Origin: an uncultured virus (IMG/VR IMGVR_UViG_3300031134_000596)
Lineage: Duplodnaviria; Heunggongvirae; Uroviricota; Caudoviricetes
Length of the DNA stretch: 64,000 bases
IMG/VR virus record: IMGVR_UViG_3300031134_000596
Strand: one strand, 5' to 3'
The notes below the pieces were generated by a model. That model did no database searches. It had not been told where the DNA came from and saw only the letters and a program-made list of their open reading frames with translations. Below, in pieces: positions 5,487 to 63,275 of this stretch. A program made the translations under genes and the position numbers. Position 1 is the first letter of the stretch. Every line of letters starts with the position of its first letter.

Positions 5487-5927
5487 TTAGTAGATTCTAA
5501 TCGATACACCACTCATGAGGTCTTGACCAGTGTATTTTTCAGGACACTCTGCTTTGGATTCGAGGAAGAAATCCCCAAATCTTCCTTGGTCTGAACTATC
5601 ACGTTCACGGAAGTAAAAGTCATCACTGGATCGGAATGTTACCTCAGTTCCTTCAAGTAATTCAAGGTCTTCCAAAAGCCAATCATCGTTGCATCCATCT
5701 GCATAGGAGTAAGTATCGACAAGCCATTTTTTCAGATAAGCCAGAGCTGTTTGCTCATCCGAAGTTCCTTCAACATACCAATAACCGCCATCTTCACCAA
5801 ACTCCTCGGCAGTCAGCTTAGGAGTTGGCTCTCCTTTAGCGACATGCTGTAAAGCTACAATGTAAGATTCGCCAGTTTCAGCTGCCCGAGCTCGAACAGT
5901 TTTCTTTAGGGAGTTGTTCTTCGTCAT
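5487..5927 (-). CDS. hypothetical protein with N-terminal RxRxAxTGE motif
   Basis: MTKNNSLKKTVRARAAETGESYIVA; same N-terminal motif as 31646..32710. Confidence 0.7.
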   Translation of the reverse strand: MTKNNSLKKTVRARAAETGESYIVALQHVAKGEPTPKLTAEEFGEDGGYWYVEGTSDEQTALAYLKKWLVDTYSYADGCNDDWLLEDLELLEGTEVTFRSSDDFYFRERDSSDQGRFGDFFLESKAECPEKYTGQDLMSGVSIRIY

Positions 5928-5944
5928 AATTTTCTCATTCAATC

Positions 5945-6081
5945 CTGCAAACACCCCACGCCTGCTCACATATGTCTATGAGGAAACGGAACGAACAGGA
6001 TTCACAGGGAACCTTCCTTCTCATTAACGTCAGCTACGTGGGAGCTTTGACGTTTCAAAGATGGGCTGCTGTTACAGCCAT
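5945..6081 (-). ncRNA. candidate structured pseudoknotted 5'-leader RNA, copy A
   Basis: shares sequence blocks and covarying stems with 31505..31630; TATTAT -10 at 6088-6093. Confidence 0.65.
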
Positions 6082-6123
6082 GAGAAAATAATACCATGAG
6101 GTGGAACAGCGGGTGAGAAAACG

Positions 6124-13496: not shown

Positions 13497-14786
13497 ATGA
13501 GGAAAGATGATATTGTCACAGGACTATTCTTAGGTGACGAAGGAAAAGGGACCGCTGTCGACTACCTTGCACACCTGAACCGACCAGTTTCTGTTGTTCG
13601 AACAGGTGGCCCGCAAGCTGCTCACAATGTTGTTAACCCTGACGGGACTCACCACACCTTTGCCCAGTTCGGCTCTGCTTCATTGCAGGAAGTTCCCACT
13701 ATCCTGTCCAAGTACATGCTTGTCAATCCTTTCAACCTGGTCACAGAAGGCGACCTTTTGTATTCGAAAACTGGAGGATGGAATCCTTTCAGTGACCTTC
13801 TCATCAGCGATAACTCTCTCCTCATCACGCCCCTCCATATTTTCCTGAACAAGAAAAGAGAAGATGCCCGAGGTAGCACTGCTCATGGTTCCACAGGTGA
13901 AGGCATCGGAGAAACACGGCTGTTCCACATTCGCCATCCTGAGTATGCCCCAGTCATGGGTGATTTGCAGCTTGGGAACTTGGACCGCCTGAAAACAAAG
14001 CTGCAGGTTTTGTACGAATACGTTGAAGAGGAATGTTCCAGCATCTGGGACGAAGGAACTGTCGACTCGCTTCATCAGGAATACGTGAACTTAGCGACAG
14101 ATGAATTTCTCAACATCGTAGATGACGAGAAAATATCTGAACGCATCCGAGAGGGTTATACTATCTTCGAATGCTCACAAGGCGTTCTCCTGGACGAATC
14201 CTTAGGTTTCCACCCACATACCACCTGGACTGGTTCAACGTCTCAGAACGCCCAGCAGCTGCTATCAGACGCGAATAAGCCTGCCGGTACAGTCGTTGGA
14301 GTAACAAGGACGTACGCCACAAGACATGGTAATGGTCCTTTGCCCTCTGAACTCCCTAACACGGATGCAAACATTTCCAGAATGCCTGAAGACCACAACG
14401 CGTACGGTCATTACCAAGGAGGTTGGCGTCGAGGACACCTTGACCTGCCCTTGCTTGAGTATGCAGTTCGCGCTAACAAAAAAGTAGACTTACTGTTCCT
14501 CACTCATTGTGATTTGGTCACTAAGGACTTCCAAGTAGTGACTAACTACAAGGACTGGAAAGACATTCCTTCAACGTTTTACGACCGTGATAGAGTCAAA
14601 CAAGAAGAGGTCACCTCCCATCTCATGGCTTTGTCCTTAGATGATGCCGAATTGACACAAGTTGAGTCTTTGGAAGAGTTGGAAGAACTTCTCGAACAGA
14701 AACTTGAAGTCCCAGTTGGTTACCGTTCGTTCGGTAAAACTTACGATGATAAGACTGTTGTTCAGGTAGGTTTTCAGCCTTCTTGA
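13497..14786 (+). CDS. purA: divergent adenylosuccinate synthetase-like protein
   Basis: GLFLGDEGKG, GGPQAAHNV, HGSTGEGIGET, FECSQGVLLD, TRTYATRHGNGPLPSE, RRGHLDL. Confidence 0.8.
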   Translation: MRKDDIVTGLFLGDEGKGTAVDYLAHLNRPVSVVRTGGPQAAHNVVNPDGTHHTFAQFGSASLQEVPTILSKYMLVNPFNLVTEGDLLYSKTGGWNPFSDLLISDNSLLITPLHIFLNKKREDARGSTAHGSTGEGIGETRLFHIRHPEYAPVMGDLQLGNLDRLKTKLQVLYEYVEEECSSIWDEGTVDSLHQEYVNLATDEFLNIVDDEKISERIREGYTIFECSQGVLLDESLGFHPHTTWTGSTSQNAQQLLSDANKPAGTVVGVTRTYATRHGNGPLPSELPNTDANISRMPEDHNAYGHYQGGWRRGHLDLPLLEYAVRANKKVDLLFLTHCDLVTKDFQVVTNYKDWKDIPSTFYDRDRVKQEEVTSHLMALSLDDAELTQVESLEELEELLEQKLEVPVGYRSFGKTYDDKTVVQVGFQPS

Positions 14787-30960: not shown

Positions 30961-31437
30961 ATGTTGATTGAATTCACTCACGACCACGTTACAACCCGGC
31001 TTTTCTTCCAAGATGACGCTGGCCGCCGCAGAGCTCTACTGCGAGCTATGGCTGCAGCACCTTTTACCGTCAACGCTCCTAACGAAGAGCTGACCAACCT
31101 TGGTGTCATGCGTGAATACGTCGATGCTTACAAGCTACCTCAGGCAATGGTGGACATGGCTGGTCCTGCACTGAAGGCTCAGCTGGAGAAGCAGCGCAAC
31201 TTCACCGCAAGCATTGTTGCACGCAAGGAGGAGGAACACGACCTCACTCTGCACCGAGACCAGCTGCTTGCCCTGCCAGTAGCTGAAGCCATCACTAAGG
31301 TGTTCTTCGTCAACGGTGAAGTCCAGAACGCTGTTGACTACATTGCTGTTGAGCTGGATAAGCTCTACACGAAGGTCACTTCGGATGGTTACACGTCGAA
31401 GAAAATTTACACACTGCACGAAGCTGAGATGGCGTAG
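30961..31437 (+). CDS. hypothetical protein
   Basis: 158-aa ORF after conserved leader. Confidence 0.75.
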   Translation: MLIEFTHDHVTTRLFFQDDAGRRRALLRAMAAAPFTVNAPNEELTNLGVMREYVDAYKLPQAMVDMAGPALKAQLEKQRNFTASIVARKEEEHDLTLHRDQLLALPVAEAITKVFFVNGEVQNAVDYIAVELDKLYTKVTSDGYTSKKIYTLHEAEMA

Positions 31438-31448
31438 CCTGATTTTGA

Positions 31449-31482
31449 ACGAAACGACCAGTATAAAAACTGGTCGTTTCGT
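31449..31482 (+). terminator. intrinsic terminator
   Basis: ACGAAACGACCAGT / ACTGGTCGTTTCGT inverted repeat. Confidence 0.75.
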
Positions 31483-31504
31483 CGTTAAGTGCTAACCTTG
31501 TACA

Positions 31505-31630
31505 CAGAGGCATCCACACAGCTGCCCGTCTCAGATGTTCCTTCCTACGCAAGGGCATCGTTGAGAGCAAGGTTTTAGAAATCCTGTGTCATACAAACCT
31601 TTAACCATTTCGGTTGAGCGTAGGTTGACT
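31505..31630 (+). ncRNA. candidate structured pseudoknotted 5'-leader RNA, copy B
   Basis: homologous architecture to 5945..6081 with compensatory changes. Confidence 0.65.
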
Positions 31631-31645
31631 GAGAATGGAAATCAA

Positions 31646-32710
31646 ATGACGAACGACCGCACCCGAAAACTCAAAATTCGGGACCGCATGGCAGCTACTG
31701 GAGAAGTCTTCTCTGTTGCTGCGAAAAGCATTGACGCTGAAACTGCTATCCACAAACCAGGCTGGCAGGCTTTCCTCGAAGGATTTGGGAACACGAACCC
31801 AATCAAAGTGTGGCGTCCTGAAGGACTCAACTCTTGGACACAGCCGGTGTATTCTCTTGTAACTTCAGCCTGGGAAGGTGACACTACATCGCTACATGCT
31901 TTAGGTGCAGCTTACAAAGCTTTGGAAATGAAAGGTCATTACTTCTGCTTCCATCACTACATTGTAGAATACATTCAGTCCTGGTTCAGTCAGAAGCAAA
32001 TTAGCCCATCAATGGACCAACTGCGGAAGACCTTCAACCAGATGCATGACACTTTTCAGTATTTGGAAGACCATCGCTGGTTTGATTCAGCTTTAGCTGA
32101 TGAAGCCACAGTTGAAGCTGCTCAAAAACTTGTGCAGTTCACAGAGAAAGACATCATCACCCGTATCAACGAATCTTTACAACAAGATGTCCGGACAGCT
32201 AAGAATACAAACTTCTACACTACTGACGGCATTATCATGATGAGCCTTCTCTGGTCGGTGCTTCCACAGGATGAACGAATCATATTCGTGGAAGGACTAA
32301 CAAAGCTTCTACAAAACCTTCCATCAGTAGAAGAAGCTAACACTGATGACATCATCTACAACAGGTACTACGCTCAACCTCCAATTGCTCGCCCAGAGCT
32401 TGCAGTGGGGGATGAAGTGAAGTTCAAAAAAGACGGTCAAAGGTGGACTGTTCGTGGCTTTTCTGAGAACTACACAGTTCTGACTCGTGTGTCTAAAAGT
32501 AAAACCACGTTAGGTCAAGATCAGTACACTATTGTGGACTGGTCAACAAGCAACCGTGGAGCTCACAGCAGCTACGGTCATGCTGTGAAAACTGATGCTG
32601 AGGTACAGACCATTCTTGAAGTTTTGGAGGACTCTACTAACGATATTGAGCTGAGTCGTAATCAGGTACCGTGCCGCATCGAGCTGGTAAAGAAAGTCAA
32701 ACAGGGATAA
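31646..32710 (+). CDS. hypothetical protein with N-terminal RxRxAxTGE motif
   Basis: MTNDRTRKLKIRDRMAATGEVFSVAA. Confidence 0.75.
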   Translation: MTNDRTRKLKIRDRMAATGEVFSVAAKSIDAETAIHKPGWQAFLEGFGNTNPIKVWRPEGLNSWTQPVYSLVTSAWEGDTTSLHALGAAYKALEMKGHYFCFHHYIVEYIQSWFSQKQISPSMDQLRKTFNQMHDTFQYLEDHRWFDSALADEATVEAAQKLVQFTEKDIITRINESLQQDVRTAKNTNFYTTDGIIMMSLLWSVLPQDERIIFVEGLTKLLQNLPSVEEANTDDIIYNRYYAQPPIARPELAVGDEVKFKKDGQRWTVRGFSENYTVLTRVSKSKTTLGQDQYTIVDWSTSNRGAHSSYGHAVKTDAEVQTILEVLEDSTNDIELSRNQVPCRIELVKKVKQG

Positions 32711-45566: not shown

Positions 45567-45818
45567 ATGACTAATTTTGACAAGAACGCAGCCAAGGGTT
45601 TCCTGAAAGCTGTAGTGAACGAAGCTAAAGTACAGAAGGAAAAGCTGCCTGAGTACACTCAGAAGGCTAAAGAAGTTGCTGCAGAACAGAAGGCAAACCT
45701 TCCTGGCAACATCGAGAAAGCTAAAGTTGTTGCGGCTCAGCAGAAGGCTAACATGCCTGAAAACATCGACAAGGCAAAAACTGTTGCTGGTCAGATCAAG
45801 CGTGGCTTGTTCAAGTAA
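45567..45818 (+). CDS. hydrophilic repeat protein
   Basis: three ~18-aa repeats (QKANLP.NIEKAK.VAA). Confidence 0.65.
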   Translation: MTNFDKNAAKGFLKAVVNEAKVQKEKLPEYTQKAKEVAAEQKANLPGNIEKAKVVAAQQKANMPENIDKAKTVAGQIKRGLFK

Positions 45819-54692: not shown

Positions 54693-55469
54693 TTAACGGC
54701 TTTCCACTAAAGTAACTATTGTGGCATGAGCAGAGCTTCTTCTTGCTGTTTTAGAAGGGTTGCTTATTCTGCGATGCGGGAGTACTTGCTCCACGACAAA
54801 CTCTTTGTCTCGTGGGTGCAGGTACTCCTGTTCTTTTTCACTGAAAGTCTGTCCGTAGTTTGACACTGGAGCTCCAGGACGGGTCTTCATAACGAAGACA
54901 AGGTTACCTAAACCTCTGTCTGGTTCATCCGCAAGGTATTCTTCCCAGTCAGCTTGTGTTGGGAACGTAGATGTGCCAATAGGTGGCTGCAAGTCTGCAT
55001 GGGACTCTGGAAGGAAGTCGAAAAGAGCGTCAGGGTTTGGTGTGGTTGAGGTGAACCCAGCAAGTTTTACTCGACCTTTGACAGGGAACTGCTGCTTTAC
55101 CCATGCTTCAGCTTCTTCTTTGTTTCGGAAATCTTGGTAGCATTTTGTGGCACGGTAAGTGATGACTGTTTCTGCTGGAGCAATCTCTTCGTATTTTTTC
55201 AACGCACTGTCAAGCTGTTTGATTCGCTCAAGAGTATCTGCAGAAGGAGTCAAATCCGCACCATGCAGGTGGGCGTTCATTTCCATGTAGCTCTGGTCCA
55301 AATAATCTGTAACTGCTGCTACTTCGTATTTGTTGAGGAACAGCTTCAGCTTTTCCGATTCCCGAGTATGGGTGTTGTAGTCGAGGCTGGTTGAGGTGAA
55401 AACGTACTCGCCAGTCTCACCATGCACACGGCAAGCGGAGGGGTTCTTTGCTCGGCATTTTCTTTTCAT
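54693..55469 (-). CDS. Cys-tag protein with ADP-ribosyltransferase (VIP2/Alt-like, R-S-E) domain
   Basis: KCRAKNPSACRVHG; Y..MN..L, YRA, FTSTT, EQEYL. Confidence 0.8.
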   Translation of the reverse strand: MKRKCRAKNPSACRVHGETGEYVFTSTSLDYNTHTRESEKLKLFLNKYEVAAVTDYLDQSYMEMNAHLHGADLTPSADTLERIKQLDSALKKYEEIAPAETVITYRATKCYQDFRNKEEAEAWVKQQFPVKGRVKLAGFTSTTPNPDALFDFLPESHADLQPPIGTSTFPTQADWEEYLADEPDRGLGNLVFVMKTRPGAPVSNYGQTFSEKEQEYLHPRDKEFVVEQVLPHRRISNPSKTARRSSAHATIVTLVESR

Positions 55470-60043: not shown

Positions 60044-62656
60044 TCAGTTCCCTTCAGAAATCAACGGTAAAGCGTAAGGAGTGTTCTGGGTGGAAGATGA
60101 ACCTAACACGTTGTATGAGTTGGAACCCCAACCCCATACAACACCGTTCTTGTCAACTCCTAAAGCGTAACCATTGGCAATGGAAATTTGCTCGAAGTTC
60201 AGTGTCACCTGTGTTTCCTGCTCACTGTTAAGCTGGAGAACATTGTTTGCGTTGTCTCCCCAACCTTTCAGCTCGCCATCTGTAGTGATACCGAAAGTGG
60301 TCCCATTACCAGCAGCAACAAAACTGTATGATGTTGCCGTGTCTGCTTCAGTCAAAGTACGCTGCTCTTCCTGATTCTGGACACCCAAAGAGTCATCGCC
60401 CCAGTTCCACAGTTTGCCTTCCTCAGTCAAAGCAAGCACATGTTTGTTACCTGCTGCAACTTGCTTCACTCCAGCCAAAGGATACTGCTGAACCTCATCA
60501 CCTAAGCTTGAACCCCAAATGAAAACAGTGTCTTTGCTGGCGGCAATCGCTACTTGCTGACCTGCTGCCAGGTAGTCAAGGTTGCTTCCAATTGGGACAG
60601 GAACAGGGTATAGACTGTTAGCTGTGGCAAGAGGTCCGAGGAGTTTGGATTCGCCAGAACCCCAGCCCCACATCTGACCTGTTTCATCTACAGCCAAAGT
60701 GTACAGATACCCAGCTTTAGCTTGTTTGAATGTGTCAATAATTTTTGCAGTGACAGCAGGTACAGTTTTGTCTGAGGCAGCACCGTTACCGAATTCACCA
60801 TCAGTGTTCTGACCCCAACCCACTAACTGGTTTGAAACATCCAAACCAACAGCACCATTATTGTAAGGTGCGACTGTTCTCAACTGACTGGTCAAGTCAA
60901 CTGGGGCAAAAGCTTGCTTCTCAGTGCTGTTCGCACCCAGCTGACCTTTAGTGTTGTCACCCCAAGCTCGAACAGTTGTACCTGTTGTAGCGTACACAGT
61001 TCCGATTCCAGCAACTACAGTGTCATAGCCTGAAGCTCGTTTCTGAGGCGTCAAAACTTTCGCTTCCTGAGCAGGGTCAGTAAGCAGTTCACCGTTAGTG
61101 TTTTTACCCCAGACGTAGACATCAGTAGTTGACACTGCAGCAGCGAACTTGTTTCCTGCCGTAATTGAGGAGGCTTTTGCAAGAATGCTCACAGGAACCT
61201 GTGTGTGAGCGTTAGCGTCATCCACGTTGATACCTGTCTGACCATCAGCGTCAGAACCCCAAGCGTAAAGGCGGTTTAAAGCGTCAATGGCGTAACCGTT
61301 CTCGCTACCCAAAGCAATTTTGGTGAACTTCAGCTGCTGTGTGATGATTTCAGGTGCAACAGCGTTGCCTCTCAGTGCAGGTTCTGCGATGACAGCAGGT
61401 TTGATGCCTGAAGTGTCAGTTGCCTGGAAAGTAGCATCAACCTGCGTGGTGCACTCAGCAACATAGTCATCAGGGTCAACAGGAGTTGGCTGAATAGGTG
61501 CAGGCGAAGGAGCTACTGTCGGTTCTGGGCTTCTTGTTGGTGCAGGTGTTGCTGTAGGGTTAGGTGTTGGAGTAGGCGTAGCAGAAGGTCGAGGTGTAGG
61601 GTTTGCTGCTTTGTAAGCTGCATCCTGCTCAGTCTGTTTGCGGTCAGCTTCTGCCTGAGCTGCTTCACGAGCGTCAGCTACTTTAGCTGCTACACAAGCG
61701 TTGATGAGACCCTGACGACGGCTTGCGTCGTTTGCTTTGATTCGAGCAATCTCTCGTTCGACTCGTTCGTTTTCTTCAACCTGAAGCTGGCGCCAGTCAG
61801 TACCAAGTCCAAGTTCTCCATGAGCGTTCTCACCCCATGAATACATGTAACCATTAGAACTCAAAGCAAGCACAGTCTGCGACTGAATGTTTGTTGCTAC
61901 AGCGTTCCAGCTGTTACCTGCAGCGGTCGGAGCTGGTGTGTTTCGTGCGGTGTTGGTTCCGTCACCAAGCTGTCCAGCATCGTTGTTACCCCAGGAGTAA
62001 AGTTCACCTGCTGCTGTTCGTGCGAAGCTAAAATTCTTTCCAGCGTAGACATCTGTGAAGCGGGCATCAGTTGAAGCAACACCTGGTGTGTTTCGTGCGG
62101 TGTTGGTTCCGTCACCAAGCTGTCCAGCATCGTTGTTACCCCAGGACCAAAGGCGTCCTTCTCCGTCCAAGGCAAGAGTGAAGTCTGCACCTGCAGCAAT
62201 TTTATTGTAACGTAAAGCTGCTGTCACCTGAGTGGGGGTGTAAGTAGGATTGGTTGTACCGTTACCAGATTGCCCGATGTCGTTAGGACCCCAGGTAAAG
62301 ATGTGGCCGCTTTCGCTGGTCGCAACACTGTGGTCGTAAGGAGAGTCAATGCTGGAGATTTTCTCAGGCAGTTCAACTTTGTTCCAACCAGAGATGTTTA
62401 CAGTCTGACCTGCAGTAATACCCAGCTGACCTTGACTGTTCCAGCCTCGTGAGTAGACGGTGCCGTCGCTGGCGATGACAGTTGCGAAAGTCTCACCAGC
62501 GGATACCTCTGCGGCTTTGATGAAGTTCTGCTCTTCAGAGGCTTGCACGTTGGTAAGGTTCTGCGAAAGTACTAAAGCAGCACCTGTTACGAAAATCGCA
62601 CCGATGGTGAGAAGCTTCTTCCCAGTAGTGGCTAAAGGCTTTGTTGTGGCATCCAT
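60044..62656 (-). CDS. secreted RCC1/BLIP-II repeat beta-propeller protein
   Basis: signal peptide, many WG.N..GQLG repeats, central coiled coil and PT-rich linker. Confidence 0.88.
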   Translation of the reverse strand: MDATTKPLATTGKKLLTIGAIFVTGAALVLSQNLTNVQASEEQNFIKAAEVSAGETFATVIASDGTVYSRGWNSQGQLGITAGQTVNISGWNKVELPEKISSIDSPYDHSVATSESGHIFTWGPNDIGQSGNGTTNPTYTPTQVTAALRYNKIAAGADFTLALDGEGRLWSWGNNDAGQLGDGTNTARNTPGVASTDARFTDVYAGKNFSFARTAAGELYSWGNNDAGQLGDGTNTARNTPAPTAAGNSWNAVATNIQSQTVLALSSNGYMYSWGENAHGELGLGTDWRQLQVEENERVEREIARIKANDASRRQGLINACVAAKVADAREAAQAEADRKQTEQDAAYKAANPTPRPSATPTPTPNPTATPAPTRSPEPTVAPSPAPIQPTPVDPDDYVAECTTQVDATFQATDTSGIKPAVIAEPALRGNAVAPEIITQQLKFTKIALGSENGYAIDALNRLYAWGSDADGQTGINVDDANAHTQVPVSILAKASSITAGNKFAAAVSTTDVYVWGKNTNGELLTDPAQEAKVLTPQKRASGYDTVVAGIGTVYATTGTTVRAWGDNTKGQLGANSTEKQAFAPVDLTSQLRTVAPYNNGAVGLDVSNQLVGWGQNTDGEFGNGAASDKTVPAVTAKIIDTFKQAKAGYLYTLAVDETGQMWGWGSGESKLLGPLATANSLYPVPVPIGSNLDYLAAGQQVAIAASKDTVFIWGSSLGDEVQQYPLAGVKQVAAGNKHVLALTEEGKLWNWGDDSLGVQNQEEQRTLTEADTATSYSFVAAGNGTTFGITTDGELKGWGDNANNVLQLNSEQETQVTLNFEQISIANGYALGVDKNGVVWGWGSNSYNVLGSSSTQNTPYALPLISEGN
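61933..62146. repeat. exact 64-bp direct repeat (61933-61996 and 62083-62146)
   Basis: identical DNA encoding SWGNNDAGQLGDGTNTARNTP, 150-bp period. Confidence 0.9.
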
Positions 62657-62660
62657 GTTG

Positions 62661-63275
62661 TTACACTTCACTTTCTGCGAAGAACGATTTCATTTCTTCT
62701 ACGCCGTTATGGTCGTTTCGTTCTTCAATACGACGGGTTGCTCGTTGTCTGGCTTTGCCAATGTGTTTGATGGAGCGTTGGTCCTGCGATAAGCGTCCAT
62801 GCAGACCAAAAATGTAGACCAGTCCAAGGGCAAAAGCTGCAGAGAGAAGCAAGATGAGACCCAAAGGTGAGCTGGCGATGCTGAATAGGAACCCTACAGC
62901 GGGGACGCTGAACTGCTCTTTGTAAGTTACATCTCGGATTTTGTAAGGGAACTCATCAGGAAGAGCCCGCTGGTCACTTTTCAACGAAATGTTATAATAC
63001 TGCTCATCATCTGTGCTGATTTCAAGCACTCGTCCAATGAGGTTACGCTGGGACTCACCAACACCGATGGTAACAATGTCGCCAGCTTTGATTTCTTTCT
63101 CAGGGGTGAGCTTGGAAACGATCAACGACCCGTTGCGTACGTCAGGTGACATAGCACTGGTAGCAACAGGAGCAACACGCCATTCAGTAAATGAGTTCAC
63201 CCCTTGAATGCCTGCCGCTAAGACGCTAAAGACAGCAACTACACCCAGTAGAGCTGCAACTAATTTTCGTTTCAC
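62661..63275 (-). CDS. SipW/S26 signal peptidase-like protein with degenerate active site
   Basis: VATSAMSP..GSLI..IKAGDIVT..LIGRV..LKSD, VPAVG. Confidence 0.6.
   Translation of the reverse strand: MKRKLVAALLGVVAVFSVLAAGIQGVNSFTEWRVAPVATSAMSPDVRNGSLIVSKLTPEKEIKAGDIVTIGVGESQRNLIGRVLEISTDDEQYYNISLKSDQRALPDEFPYKIRDVTYKEQFSVPAVGFLFSIASSPLGLILLLSAAFALGLVYIFGLHGRLSQDQRSIKHIGKARQRATRRIEERNDHNGVEEMKSFFAESEV

What the first reader, a model, noticed from the sequence alone, without database searches (positions are those of the whole stretch)
5945..6081. Conserved pseudoknotted RNA motif (copy A) upstream of an RxRxAxTGE-motif gene
Seen in sequence: this minus-strand leader and 31505-31630 share the blocks ACAGCWGCCCRTCT, TGAGA(A)GSAAGGTT, AATCCTGT and GCGTRGG, and the same stems with compensatory changes. 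The outer stem is AACAG/CTGTT versus ACACAG/CTGTGT. The long hairpin is AACGTCA..AGCT/AGCT..GACGTT versus GATGT..CCTT/AAGG..GCATC. Loop CCCACG (6037-6042) pairs with CGTGGG (5955-5960), versus CCTACGC/GCGTAGG in copy B, and a small hairpin precedes the pseudoknot 3' strand in both. The downstream proteins share only an N-terminal ~25-aa basic helix. Inference: a structured cis-regulatory RNA or RNP partner, perhaps bound by that N-terminal domain (autoregulation or a type III antitoxin-like pair). I do not recognise it as a named family.
Basis: partly seen in the sequence, partly recalled or inferred. Interest (0 to 1): 0.8.

Follow-up and report, generated by a model that had tools for sequence, protein, structure and literature searches.

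The report
Pseudoknotted leader RNA with peptide tag
A folded RNA of about 130 bases with two long-range pairings lies in front of two phage genes, and the same RNA, always joined to the same 30-residue protein start, recurs in front of many unrelated bacterial genes, so it looks like a portable and so far undescribed control module.

Summary
Both window copies (5955-6079 minus; 31509-31624 plus) belong to one structured 5' leader family. I found it upstream of all 7 fetched homologues of the copy-B gene whose 5' end is held. Covariance models also found it upstream of 72 of 80 bacterial genes, mostly Actinomycetota, that were fetched only because they encode the same N-terminal ~30-residue domain. 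No Rfam 15 family matches. Covariation supports every helix: 93.6% of cells paired against 39-47% in slid controls, with 31 of 39 pairs changed on both sides. The N-terminal domain (MTxDxxFKxxVRARMAETGExYxxA, predicted helix-turn-helix) is found in 1194 protein clusters. It is fused to unrelated C-terminal domains, including kinase, DnaB-like ATPase, T2SSF, NUDIX, KH, DUF2087 and GDP-fucose synthase. Both new RNA matches found by RNA alone precede this domain. Best reading, inferred and not shown: a portable RNA-plus-peptide cassette for autogenous control of translation. Binding, transcription and regulation are untested. A type III antitoxin reading is not supported.

The parts
6088..6096 (-). 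Copy A: extended -10-like TGGTATTAT, 9 nt upstream of the first hairpin (predicted promoter element)
   Evidence: Read. Similar TGGTAnnnT elements lie 9-11 nt before the hairpin in L053, L054 and L058. The two-hexamer sigma-70 scan found nothing here, so this is read by eye only.
6064..6079 (-). Copy A: 5' hairpin S1 (GGCTG 6079-6075 / CAGCC 6068-6064). Its loop holds AACAG (6073-6069), the 5' strand of pseudoknot PK1.
   Evidence: Coordinates. S1 covaries: GGCTG/CAGCC, GGCAT/ATGCC, GGCAG/CTGCC, GGGCG/CGCCC. S1 is 92.5% paired on A12.
6014..6063 (-). Copy A: junction plus long hairpin P2, with the 7-nt loop CCCACGT (6042-6036), the 5' strand of pseudoknot PK2
   Evidence: 9 of 10 P2 pairs change on both sides on A12.
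5999..6013 (-). Copy A: small hairpin P3 (GGTTC / GAATC), preceded by the conserved purine-rich core GAGAAGGAAGG
   Evidence: 11 distinct P3 variants; 94.3% paired.
5994..5998 (-). Copy A: CTGTT, 3' strand of PK1 (pairs with AACAG in the S1 loop)
   Evidence: PK1 has 23 distinct complementary variants. All 5 PK1 pairs change on both sides on A12, although PK1 was not part of the model.
5962..5993 (-). Copy A: variable linker with a small hairpin (CTCA...TGAG)
   Evidence: The linker varies in length and is partly deleted in L051.
5955..5961 (-). Copy A: GCGTGGG, 3' strand of PK2 (pairs with loop CCCACGT; 7 pairs, one G-U)
   Evidence: PK2 is 99.7% paired on A12 and has 15 distinct variants.
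5928..5954 (-). Copy A: 27-nt spacer to the start codon, with a GAGAAA ribosome-site-like stretch
   Evidence: Similar stretches precede other ORFs of the window. The distance from PK2 to the start codon is 20-28 nt in nearly all parsed leaders.
5487..5927 (-). Copy A gene (P0001, 146 aa). Residues 1-30 (5838-5927) form the shared N-terminal domain.
31509..31526 (+). Copy B: 5' hairpin S1 (GGCA / TGCC). Its loop holds ACACAG (31516-31521), the 5' strand of PK1.
31527..31570 (+). Copy B: junction plus long hairpin P2 with loop CCTACGC (31544-31550)
31571..31583 (+). Copy B: hairpin P3 (GGTTT tag AAATC)
31584..31589 (+). Copy B: CTGTGT, 3' strand of PK1
31590..31617 (+). Copy B: linker with the small hairpin AACC/GGTT (31603-31615)
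   Evidence: helix 6: 79% paired, no covariation.
31618..31624 (+). Copy B: GCGTAGG, 3' strand of PK2. A possible enclosing hairpin is GTTGA 31613-31617 / TTGAC 31625-31629.
   Evidence: The enclosing hairpin is read by eye in this type. It is supported in the high-GC types.
31646..32710 (+). Copy B gene (P0002, 354 aa). Residues 1-30 (31646-31735) form the shared N-terminal domain.

Best explanation
The two elements are members of a widespread, previously uncatalogued family of structured 5' leader RNAs of about 125-150 nt. The family comes fused, as one cassette, to a conserved N-terminal domain of about 30 residues in the protein it precedes. The RNA appears to start at or near the transcript's 5' end. 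Its parts, in order, are as follows. (1) A 5' hairpin, S1. (2) A long hairpin, P2, with a 7-nt CC-loop. (3) A purine-rich core followed by a short hairpin, P3. (4) A strand pairing with the S1 loop (pseudoknot PK1). (5) A variable linker. (6) A strand pairing with the P2 loop (PK2), which in the high-GC types lies in the loop of a further hairpin, P5. (7) The ribosome site and start codon, about 20-28 nt further on. The fold and the RNA-domain linkage are shown. The function is inferred. I propose that the basic helix-turn-helix at the protein's N-terminus binds this leader and so represses or tunes initiation on its own mRNA. This could happen as soon as the domain emerges from the ribosome, and therefore preferentially in cis. 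Because RNA and peptide travel together, the cassette can be grafted onto any gene. That would explain its presence on unrelated enzymes, kinases and membrane proteins, and on two genes of this phage-like genome.
For: Fold. On 49 sequences aligned by model R2, 93.6% of cells are paired against 39-47% in slid controls, and 31 of 39 pairs change on both sides. The two pseudoknots were not in the model, yet PK2 is 99.7% and PK1 92.2% paired. On 21 Nocardioides-type leaders aligned by MAFFT, 94.0% of cells are paired against 31-50%. RNAalifold on its own picks the loop-to-PK2 pairing. On the 8 window-type sequences the figure is 90.6% against 28-46%. A strict architecture parser fits 62 of 91 real leaders and 2 of 1820 dinucleotide shuffles. 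It finds 23 PK1 and 15 PK2 complementary variants.

Linkage from the protein side. 80 bacterial loci were fetched only through the peptide. Of these, 72 have a covariance-model hit directly upstream on the same strand: 42 by R2 and 30 by R3.

Linkage from the RNA side. In 5 genomes R2 gave 8 matches. The 2 that were new (L150, L151) are both followed by an ORF beginning with the domain.

Position. The leaders follow -10-like hexamers by 6-13 nt (read by eye). PK2 ends 20-28 nt before the start codon in nearly all parsed cases. No intrinsic-terminator-like site lies on the leader's strand in either leader.

Domain. It sits at the extreme N-terminus in nearly all of the 150 listed hits, out of 1194 clusters. 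R12, R14, A16, T18, G19 and E20 are invariant, and it is K/R-rich. It is predicted as helix 3-18, turn, helix 22-31. Synonymous sites vary freely, so selection acts on the peptide.

Portability. The C-terminal parts are unrelated.
Against: No experiment or tool here shows that the domain binds RNA. It has no detectable similarity to any known RNA-binding domain by Pfam, PDB sequence search or Foldseek (best E 3). The ribosome site is not visibly sequestered by the conserved fold. The domain also occurs without the leader: L059 and L060 are translationally coupled to an upstream ORF, and L115, L127 and L129 show no leader. So the domain must have, or also have, another role. A 54-aa protein consisting of the domain alone with a leader exists (L113), for which pure self-regulation would be pointless. 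The transcription start is inferred only. The full sigma-70 scan found no promoter at either copy on the right strand.
Confidence: 0.5

Rival explanations
1. The leader is a riboswitch or the binding site of a separate trans-acting factor (a protein, sRNA, ion or metabolite). It would define a regulon. The N-terminal domain would be an independent feature of the regulon's proteins, for example a degradation, localisation or interaction tag answering to the same signal.
For: The leader has a compact double-pseudoknot fold with invariant junction nucleotides, like many aptamers. It lies at a fixed distance from the start codon. Several copies occur in one genome in front of different genes: at least 4 in G004.
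Against: The downstream genes share no metabolic or transport theme. The only common denominator is the peptide. The two new matches found by RNA alone, and every strong match among the loci fetched through the peptide, are followed by the domain. A ligand-sensing RNA would not need that. No expression platform, either terminator or anti-ribosome-site helix, is conserved.
Confidence: 0.2
2. The leader is not mainly a regulator but a stable RNA partner. After translation, and perhaps after cleavage from the mRNA, it stays bound to the N-terminal domain. The resulting RNP handle would serve localisation, assembly, packaging or protection of whatever protein carries it.
For: The RNA-peptide linkage is the same as above. 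The fold is far more elaborate than most repressor operators need. The cassette is found on membrane proteins (T2SSF) and on phage genes.
Against: There is no evidence of processing or of a stable RNA species. The fixed spacing to the start codon argues for a role in initiation.
Confidence: 0.12
3. The leader is a translation enhancer or standby site that recruits ribosomes through its Shine-Dalgarno-like purine-rich core (GAGGACAAGGG, GAAGGAGCAAGGG, GAAGGGGAG). The first codons would be conserved for initiation or early elongation.
For: The invariant core resembles a Shine-Dalgarno sequence. The second codon is almost always ACN, giving MT.
Against: The core is paired or buried in the conserved fold. 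Peptide conservation runs over 30 residues with free synonymous variation between 45% and 77% GC. That is protein-level selection, not selection on the codons around the start.
Confidence: 0.08
4. The shared block is the DNA-level end of a mobile or recombining element (a promoter, leader and N-terminus cassette spread by recombination) and has no RNA function.
For: The similarity between copies A and B stops abruptly after about 30 codons. The cassette sits on unrelated genes.
Against: Compensatory changes keep five helices and two long-range pairings over very divergent sequences. That pattern requires selection on a folded single strand. The copies are old and diverged, not recent transfers (copy A and copy B).
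Confidence: 0.03
5. It is a type III toxin-antitoxin-like pair, in which the RNA neutralises the downstream protein.
For: A structured RNA lies directly upstream of a small protein of unknown function in a phage-like genome.
Against: There is no tandem array of RNA repeats at either copy. There are no PADLOC or Pfam toxin matches. The same RNA precedes housekeeping-type enzymes such as GDP-L-fucose synthase.
Confidence: 0.02

Closest known systems
Autogenous translational operators of ribosomal-protein mRNAs (e.g. the E. coli L20 pseudoknot operator; PMC1888825, of which I saw only the abstract in a search listing)
   Same: A structured, often pseudoknotted 5' leader placed next to the ribosome site of the gene whose product is thought to bind it.
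   Different: There the RNA mimics an rRNA site and each operator serves one protein family. Here one RNA family goes with one small N-terminal domain that is fused to many unrelated proteins. Binding is not shown.
Phage T4 gp32 autogenous repression through a 5' pseudoknot (PMC535899 and PMC3014915, of which I saw only the abstracts in a search listing)
   Same: A phage gene with a pseudoknot at the 5' end of its leader, used for translational self-control.
   Different: gp32 is a general ssDNA-binding protein that spreads from the pseudoknot over an unstructured region. Here the whole leader is structured and the presumed binding part is a 30-residue tag.
Lambda N protein arginine-rich motif binding boxB in nutL, upstream of its own gene (recalled, not checked in any call)
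   Same: A short basic N-terminal peptide paired with an RNA structure encoded in the leader of its own mRNA.
   Different: boxB is a 15-nt hairpin and N acts on transcription antitermination. Here the RNA is a ~130-nt double-pseudoknot fold. The peptide is a helix-turn-helix with an invariant RxRxAxTGE and is attached to enzymes.
Pseudoknotted three-way-junction riboswitch aptamers. The TPP riboswitch shares the short words CUGAGA-like and GCGUAGG (recalled).
   Same: The size, the junction with invariant nucleotides, the long-range tertiary pairings and the position in a 5' UTR.
   Different: There is no Rfam hit to RF00059 or any other riboswitch, even at E up to 10. The topology differs. 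The downstream genes share no metabolic theme.
Type III toxin-antitoxin systems (ToxIN-like; recalled)
   Same: An RNA encoded directly upstream of a protein in a phage or defence context.
   Different: There are no tandem repeats and no toxin family match.

Membership tests
Any Rfam 15 family | Covariance-model score at or near the family's gathering threshold | tested here: not met
   There were 0 matches at gathering on the whole window. On the two copies, nothing relevant appeared at E up to 10 (chance-level snoRNA and viral hits far below threshold). On 3 viral loci and 16 bacterial loci with the leader, nothing overlapping the leader came anywhere near a gathering score at E up to 10 and up to 1 respectively (one sub-threshold snoRNA sR44 match at L064 1099-1156, 22.8 bits against gathering 45, E 0.15, overlaps the leader, and one tRNA lies elsewhere in L091).
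TPP riboswitch (RF00059) | A match to the THI-box model, and thiamine-related downstream genes | tested here: not met
   There was no RF00059 hit at E up to 10. The downstream genes are unrelated to thiamine. The resemblance of short words is recalled only.
Type III toxin-antitoxin | A tandem array of ~34-36-nt antitoxin RNA repeats upstream of the toxin gene | tested here: not met
   Tandem Repeats Finder at minimum score 30 found no array within 5925-6096 or 31505-31648.
Type III toxin-antitoxin | The downstream protein is an endoribonuclease toxin family member | tested here: not met
   P0001 and P0002 have no Pfam, PHROG-annotated, NCBIfam or PADLOC match of that kind.
Autogenous translational operator (works-like class, not a sequence family) | The encoded protein binds its own leader and lowers its own translation | not testable with these tools
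   Only the co-occurrence of RNA and domain is shown. The complex predictor takes no RNA chain.
Autogenous translational operator (works-like class) | A structured element in the 5' UTR close to the ribosome site of the regulated gene | tested here: met
   PK2 ends 20-28 nt before the start codon in nearly all of the 62 parsed leaders. In the high-GC types the P5 3' strand ends a few nt before the Shine-Dalgarno sequence.
H-type pseudoknot / loop-loop tertiary contacts (structural class) | Hairpin-loop nucleotides pair with a distal single strand, supported by compensatory changes | tested here: met
   For PK1, all 5 pairs show changes on both sides. For PK2, 3 of 7 pairs do, with 99.7% of cells paired. 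In the Nocardioides type, PK1 is 97.1% and PK2 98.0% paired. The hairpin enclosing the PK2 3' strand is 98.3% paired in 30 sequences and 93.3% in 21.

The most novel reading that the evidence does not exclude
The leader RNA and the N-terminal helical hairpin form a self-contained, portable feedback cassette. The nascent N-terminus captures the 5' leader of the very mRNA it is being made from, which limits each transcript to a set number of initiations. Evolution has grafted this RNA-plus-peptide unit onto more than a thousand unrelated protein families, from sugar-nucleotide enzymes and kinases to pilus membrane proteins and genes of very large phages.
Probability: 0.3. Interest if true: 0.9.

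Novelty: new variant of a known kind. Interest (0 to 1): 0.8.

Why it matters
If this holds, it adds a large structured RNA class with two tertiary pairings that is absent from Rfam 15. It also gives that class a built-in clue to its partner, which is rare for orphan RNA motifs. The RNA always travels with one small, uncatalogued protein domain found in 1194 protein clusters. A cis-acting RNA-peptide control unit that works on any gene would be a new principle of bacterial and phage gene control. It would also be a ready-made, compact part for synthetic biology. In addition, it offers a short peptide plus a ~130-nt RNA as a tractable pair for structural work.

Tried and rejected
1. None carried the flanking blocks, and the number fits chance.

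2. blastn of 2 kb around copy A against the phage and plasmid collections gave no match.

3. No whole genome is held for the window. The metagenome records behind L051-L056 cannot be searched whole, so the copy-A homologue seen as protein P0009 on the 883-kb contig could not be fetched.

4. P0001 and P0002 as single proteins, and the alignment A2 of P0002 homologues, found nothing in viral contigs.

5. A global MAFFT alignment of all leader types mis-registers the Nocardioides type. I therefore used two models, R2 and R3, instead of one.

6. R2 on 150 further genomes sampled from the phylum gave 0 matches. Only 22 first-look candidates per genome were scored, so this says little.

7. R3 on five Nocardioides genomes gave two weak extra hits (E 4e-4; L157, L158). 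They lie in apparently coding sequence with no domain ORF after them, and I treat them as false. One more hit lies on the wrong strand in L143.

8. No RNA holder was listed among the sequencing runs for the window stretch, so no reads were laid.

9. Domain searches gave nothing. These were Pfam at E up to 10, a PDB profile search, the ESM Atlas and Foldseek on the AlphaFold model (best E 3, generic helical hairpins).

10. The earlier-findings index returned nothing by place or by sequence.

11. Literature: four full-text searches and term look-ups in two motif-discovery papers (PMC11109978, PMC8632094; passages only) turned up no description of this RNA or domain. Their supplements were not read and may list motifs not named in the text.

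12. I considered whether the 3' strand of the last hairpin alternatively pairs with the start-codon region in the Streptosporangiales-type leaders (by eye). This is not kept in L136 or in other types, so I dropped it.

Full report
**The observation**

Copy A runs on the minus strand and copy B on the plus strand. The block ACAGCWGCCCRTCT occurs exactly twice in the window, once in each copy. The loop and its distal complement are CCCACG 6042-6037 with CGTGGG 5960-5955 in copy A. In copy B they are CCTACGC 31544-31550 with GCGTAGG 31618-31624. The downstream ORFs are P0001 (146 aa, ATG at 5927) and P0002 (354 aa, ATG at 31646). They align only over their first ~30 residues. Rfam 15 gives no match at gathering on the whole window and nothing relevant at E up to 10 on either region.

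**Context**

The window looks like part of a very large phage-like genome. Of 28 larger ORFs most have no Pfam family. The annotated ones are as follows:
- a PurZ-like adenylosuccinate synthetase
- an RCC1-repeat protein
- an HNH/DUF4379 endonuclease
- an Alt-like ADP-ribosyltransferase
- a DNA methylase

The window holds no tRNA. No whole genome is held for it, and it has no blastn relative among the phage or plasmid records.

**Relatives of the window copies**

P0002 has four homologues in the protein collection. One metagenome scan with their alignment returned 8 loci, on contigs of up to 788,683, 878,612 and 883,042 bp. In all 7 loci that hold the gene's 5' end, the leader is present directly upstream. 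The upper part of the long hairpin is rebuilt with different letters: ATGTT/GCATC, GCATC/GATGTC, GTTGG/CCAAC, ATGG/CCAT. On the 8-sequence alignment A4 the structure holds in 90.6% of cells, against 28-46% when the 3' partners are slid by 1-3 columns. Ten pairs change on both sides. Model R1, built from this alignment, finds exactly two copies in the window even with filters off. The third-best hit scores 10.3 bits.

**The N-terminal domain and the wider family**

A profile of the first 35 residues was searched against 1.84 billion cluster representatives. It found 1194 proteins at E up to 0.001. Nearly all of the 150 listed hits carry the match at residue 1, in proteins of 40 to about 600 residues. 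I scanned 106 of them against Pfam:

| Pfam family | Proteins |
|---|---|
| DnaB_C | 11 |
| T2SSF | 6 |
| NUDIX | 1 |
| Phage_integrase | 1 |
| DUF6292 | 1 |
| DUF4287 | 1 |
| no family | 85 |

A peptide-based scan of viral contigs gave 5 high-GC loci. One of them, L061, carries the RNA. A peptide-based scan of one genome per species gave 80 loci. Most are Actinomycetota: Nocardioides, Streptosporangiaceae/Trebonia, Solirubrobacteraceae, Frankia, Streptomyces and Amycolatopsis. There is also one Archangium, one Gemmatimonadaceae MAG and one Alphaproteobacteria MAG. Their upstream regions are visibly related leaders of several sequence types.

The downstream proteins are unrelated to each other:
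- KH_2
- DUF2087
- protein kinase with HA domains
- BtrH_N/DUF4872
- GDP-L-fucose synthase
- zf-UBP
- DUF4287

None of 16 bacterial and 3 viral loci matches an Rfam family at the leader.

**Revised architecture**

Its variants are GGCTG/CAGCC, GGCTT/AAGCC, GGCAT/ATGCC, GGCAG/CTGCC, GGGCG/CGCCC and GCGCT/AGCGC. That pairing is therefore an H-type pseudoknot (PK1) with 0-3 nt before and 0-2 nt after the loop strand. It covaries: CACAG/CTGTG, AGCGC/GCGCT, CGTCC/GGACG, CGTCC/GGGCG, CGCCC/GGGCG and CGTGC/GCACG.

It occurs in 15 complementary versions, among them:
- CCTACGC/GCGTAGG
- CCCGCGC/GCGCGGG
- CCCCAGT/ACTGGGG
- CCCCAGC/GCTGGGG
- CCCACAC/GTGTGGG
- CCCATGC/GCATGGG

In the two high-GC types the distal strand lies in the loop of a further hairpin, P5. 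P5 is 98.3% paired in 30 sequences, with G-C to A-U and U-A to C-G changes. It is 93.3% paired in 21 sequences. PK2 is therefore a loop-loop contact there. In the window type such a hairpin is possible (GTTGA/TTGAC around 31618-31624), but it competes with the small hairpin before it and has no decisive covariation.

**Tests of the fold**

A strict parser requires S1, PK1, the P2 loop and closing pairs, P3 and PK2 in the right order and spacing. It fits 62 of 91 leaders and 2 of 1820 dinucleotide-preserving shuffles. The parser was written after I had seen the sequences, and many leaders are close relatives, so this is a control rather than a probability.

| Alignment | Sequences | Cells paired | Slid controls | Further result |
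|---|---|---|---|---|
| A4 (window type, MAFFT) | 8 | 90.6% | 28-46% | 10 pairs change on both sides |
| A12 (aligned by R2) | 49 | 93.6% | 39-47% | 31 of 39 pairs change on both sides; 0 of 500 shuffles reach any of the five measures |
| A14 (Nocardioides type, MAFFT) | 21 | 94.0% | 31-50% | PK1 97.1% paired (U-A 8, U-G 8, C-G 4 at one pair); PK2 98.0% |

Model R2 was built from 23 sequences with S1, P2, P3 and a linker hairpin but without the pseudoknots. It finds 49 leaders at E below 1e-4. On its alignment A12 the pseudoknots, which the model could not have fitted, are 92.2% (PK1) and 99.7% (PK2) paired. RNAalifold, which knows nothing of my parse, pairs the P2 loop with the distal strand on A14.

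**Linkage of RNA and domain**

From the protein side, R2 hits 42 and R3 hits 30 further loci of the 80 genome loci. Every hit is directly upstream of the ORF and on its strand, giving 72 of 80. The other 8 break down as follows:
- L132 passes the parser.
- L114 has a weak R2 hit (E 0.12).
- L074, L097 and L121 show a loop with a distal complement by eye.
- L115, L127 and L129 show nothing.

The viral loci L059 and L060 have the domain gene overlapping the stop of an upstream ORF and no leader.

From the RNA side, R2 run on five whole genomes gave 8 matches. Six were the known loci. The two new ones (L150, L151) are each followed, 24 and 23 nt later, by an ORF beginning MTQDKARKAAIRHRMAETGEPY or VTNRDKKDSIRGRMADTGESF. 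R3 on five Nocardioides genomes gave the five known loci at E below 1e-28. It also gave two 30-bit hits without a domain ORF, which I take as false.

The search tool scores only 150 first-look candidates per genome, so copy numbers are lower bounds. A sample of 150 other genomes of the phylum gave no match, but with only 22 candidates scored each.

**What the anatomy says about function**

The leader follows a -10-like hexamer by 6-13 nt in every type: TGGTAnnnT in the window type, TAGCCT, GAGACT and TATCTT in the others. The two-hexamer scan found no promoter, so the start site is inferred. PK2 ends 20-28 nt before the start codon in nearly all parsed leaders. In the high-GC types the Shine-Dalgarno sequence follows the P5 hairpin by a few nt. 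Neither window leader has a terminator-like site on its own strand. Together this points to control at initiation rather than attenuation.

The domain is basic. R12, R14, A16, T18, G19 and E20 are invariant and K8 nearly so. It is predicted as two helices joined by the TGE turn (mean pLDDT 76). It is conserved at the protein level while codons vary freely between 45% and 77% GC. It resembles no catalogued domain.

The RNA was never seen without the domain in strong hits, whereas the domain is sometimes seen without the RNA. The simplest reading is that the RNA exists to serve the domain: it is its binding site on its own mRNA. I give this 0.5. The steps 'binds' and 'represses' are inference.

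**Rivals and comparison with known systems**

- A ligand- or factor-sensing leader with an independent tag (0.2) fails to explain why the peptide is always there.
- A stable RNP handle (0.12) is not excluded.
- A ribosome-recruiting enhancer built on the Shine-Dalgarno-like core (0.08) does not explain 30 residues of protein-level conservation.
- A DNA-level recombination cassette (0.03) is contradicted by the covariation.
- A type III antitoxin (0.02) lacks its defining tandem repeats and a toxin family.

The nearest known systems by mode of action are autogenous operators such as the L20 pseudoknot and the T4 gene 32 pseudoknot. For both I saw abstracts only, in the listing. A further comparison is the lambda N peptide with boxB, which I recall and did not check. 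None of them is a portable unit fused to unrelated proteins.

I found no description of this RNA or domain in four literature searches and two paper look-ups. Supplementary motif lists were not read.

**Verdict**

The feature is real and widespread, has an unusually intricate fold, and is absent from Rfam 15. Its function is open but directly testable, with a 35-residue peptide and a ~130-nt RNA. Interest 0.8.

Noticed in passing
window 1-64000; L051, L054, L056: Close and distant relatives of this window lie on metagenome contigs of 788,683, 878,612 and 883,042 bp. The window's gene content is phage-like and mostly unknown. It has no tRNA. If these contigs are phage genomes they would be exceptionally large. 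The sequencing runs that hold the stretch are phyllosphere, plant and straw metagenomes.
   Followed up: partly
window 13497-14786 (+): This is an adenylosuccinate-synthetase homologue. Its best PHROG match is the family named 2-aminooxy adenylosuccinate synthetase (PurZ-like; E 4e-66). That hints at 2-aminoadenine (Z) DNA in this genome.
   Followed up: no
window 54693-55469 (-) and 60044-62671 (-): One ORF has an ADP-ribosyltransferase exoenzyme domain with a weak Alt-like PHROG match. The other is an 875-aa RCC1-repeat protein.
   Followed up: no
window, 30 nt upstream of 28 ORF starts: Many ORFs are preceded by GTTAGAAAT, GTTAGGAAT or AAGGAAC about 7-10 nt before the ATG, rather than by a canonical AGGAGG. 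This suggests an unusual ribosome-site or late-promoter-like motif.
   Followed up: no
window 45632-45794: A 54-nt tandem repeat of 2-2.6 copies at ~76% identity, apparently inside coding sequence.
   Followed up: no
window 31448-31485 (+): A long perfect hairpin (AACGAAACGACCAG ... CTGGTCGTTTCGT) lies between the upstream gene (30961-31437) and copy B. It is probably that gene's terminator. It leaves only ~25 nt for the promoter of copy B (by eye).
   Followed up: no
L051:9885-10003 compared with window 31590-31603: The 97%-identical relative has a 14-nt deletion in the linker. The deletion removes the AACCTT stretch that could pair with the AAGGTT of P3. The linker and that alternative pairing are therefore dispensable.
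   Followed up: partly
L102:1117-1195, L123:1117-1182: This is a shortened leader variant (R3 hits, E ~1e-5). It has S1, the purine core and P3. P2 has a 3-nt loop and there is no room for PK2. It lies in front of a GDP-L-fucose synthase that carries the N-terminal domain as a 50-residue extension.
   Followed up: partly
L113:1201-1365; L075:1201-1398: These are complete ORFs of only 54 and 65 residues that consist of little more than the domain, and each has a leader. They may be stand-alone forms acting in trans, or truncated genes.
   Followed up: no
L086:1201-2493: The Solirubrobacteraceae carrier is a Ser/Thr kinase with helicase-associated domains. It matches the PD-T4-6 and Mad6 defence-kinase models of PADLOC (E 1e-33). 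Some carriers may therefore be defence genes.
   Followed up: no
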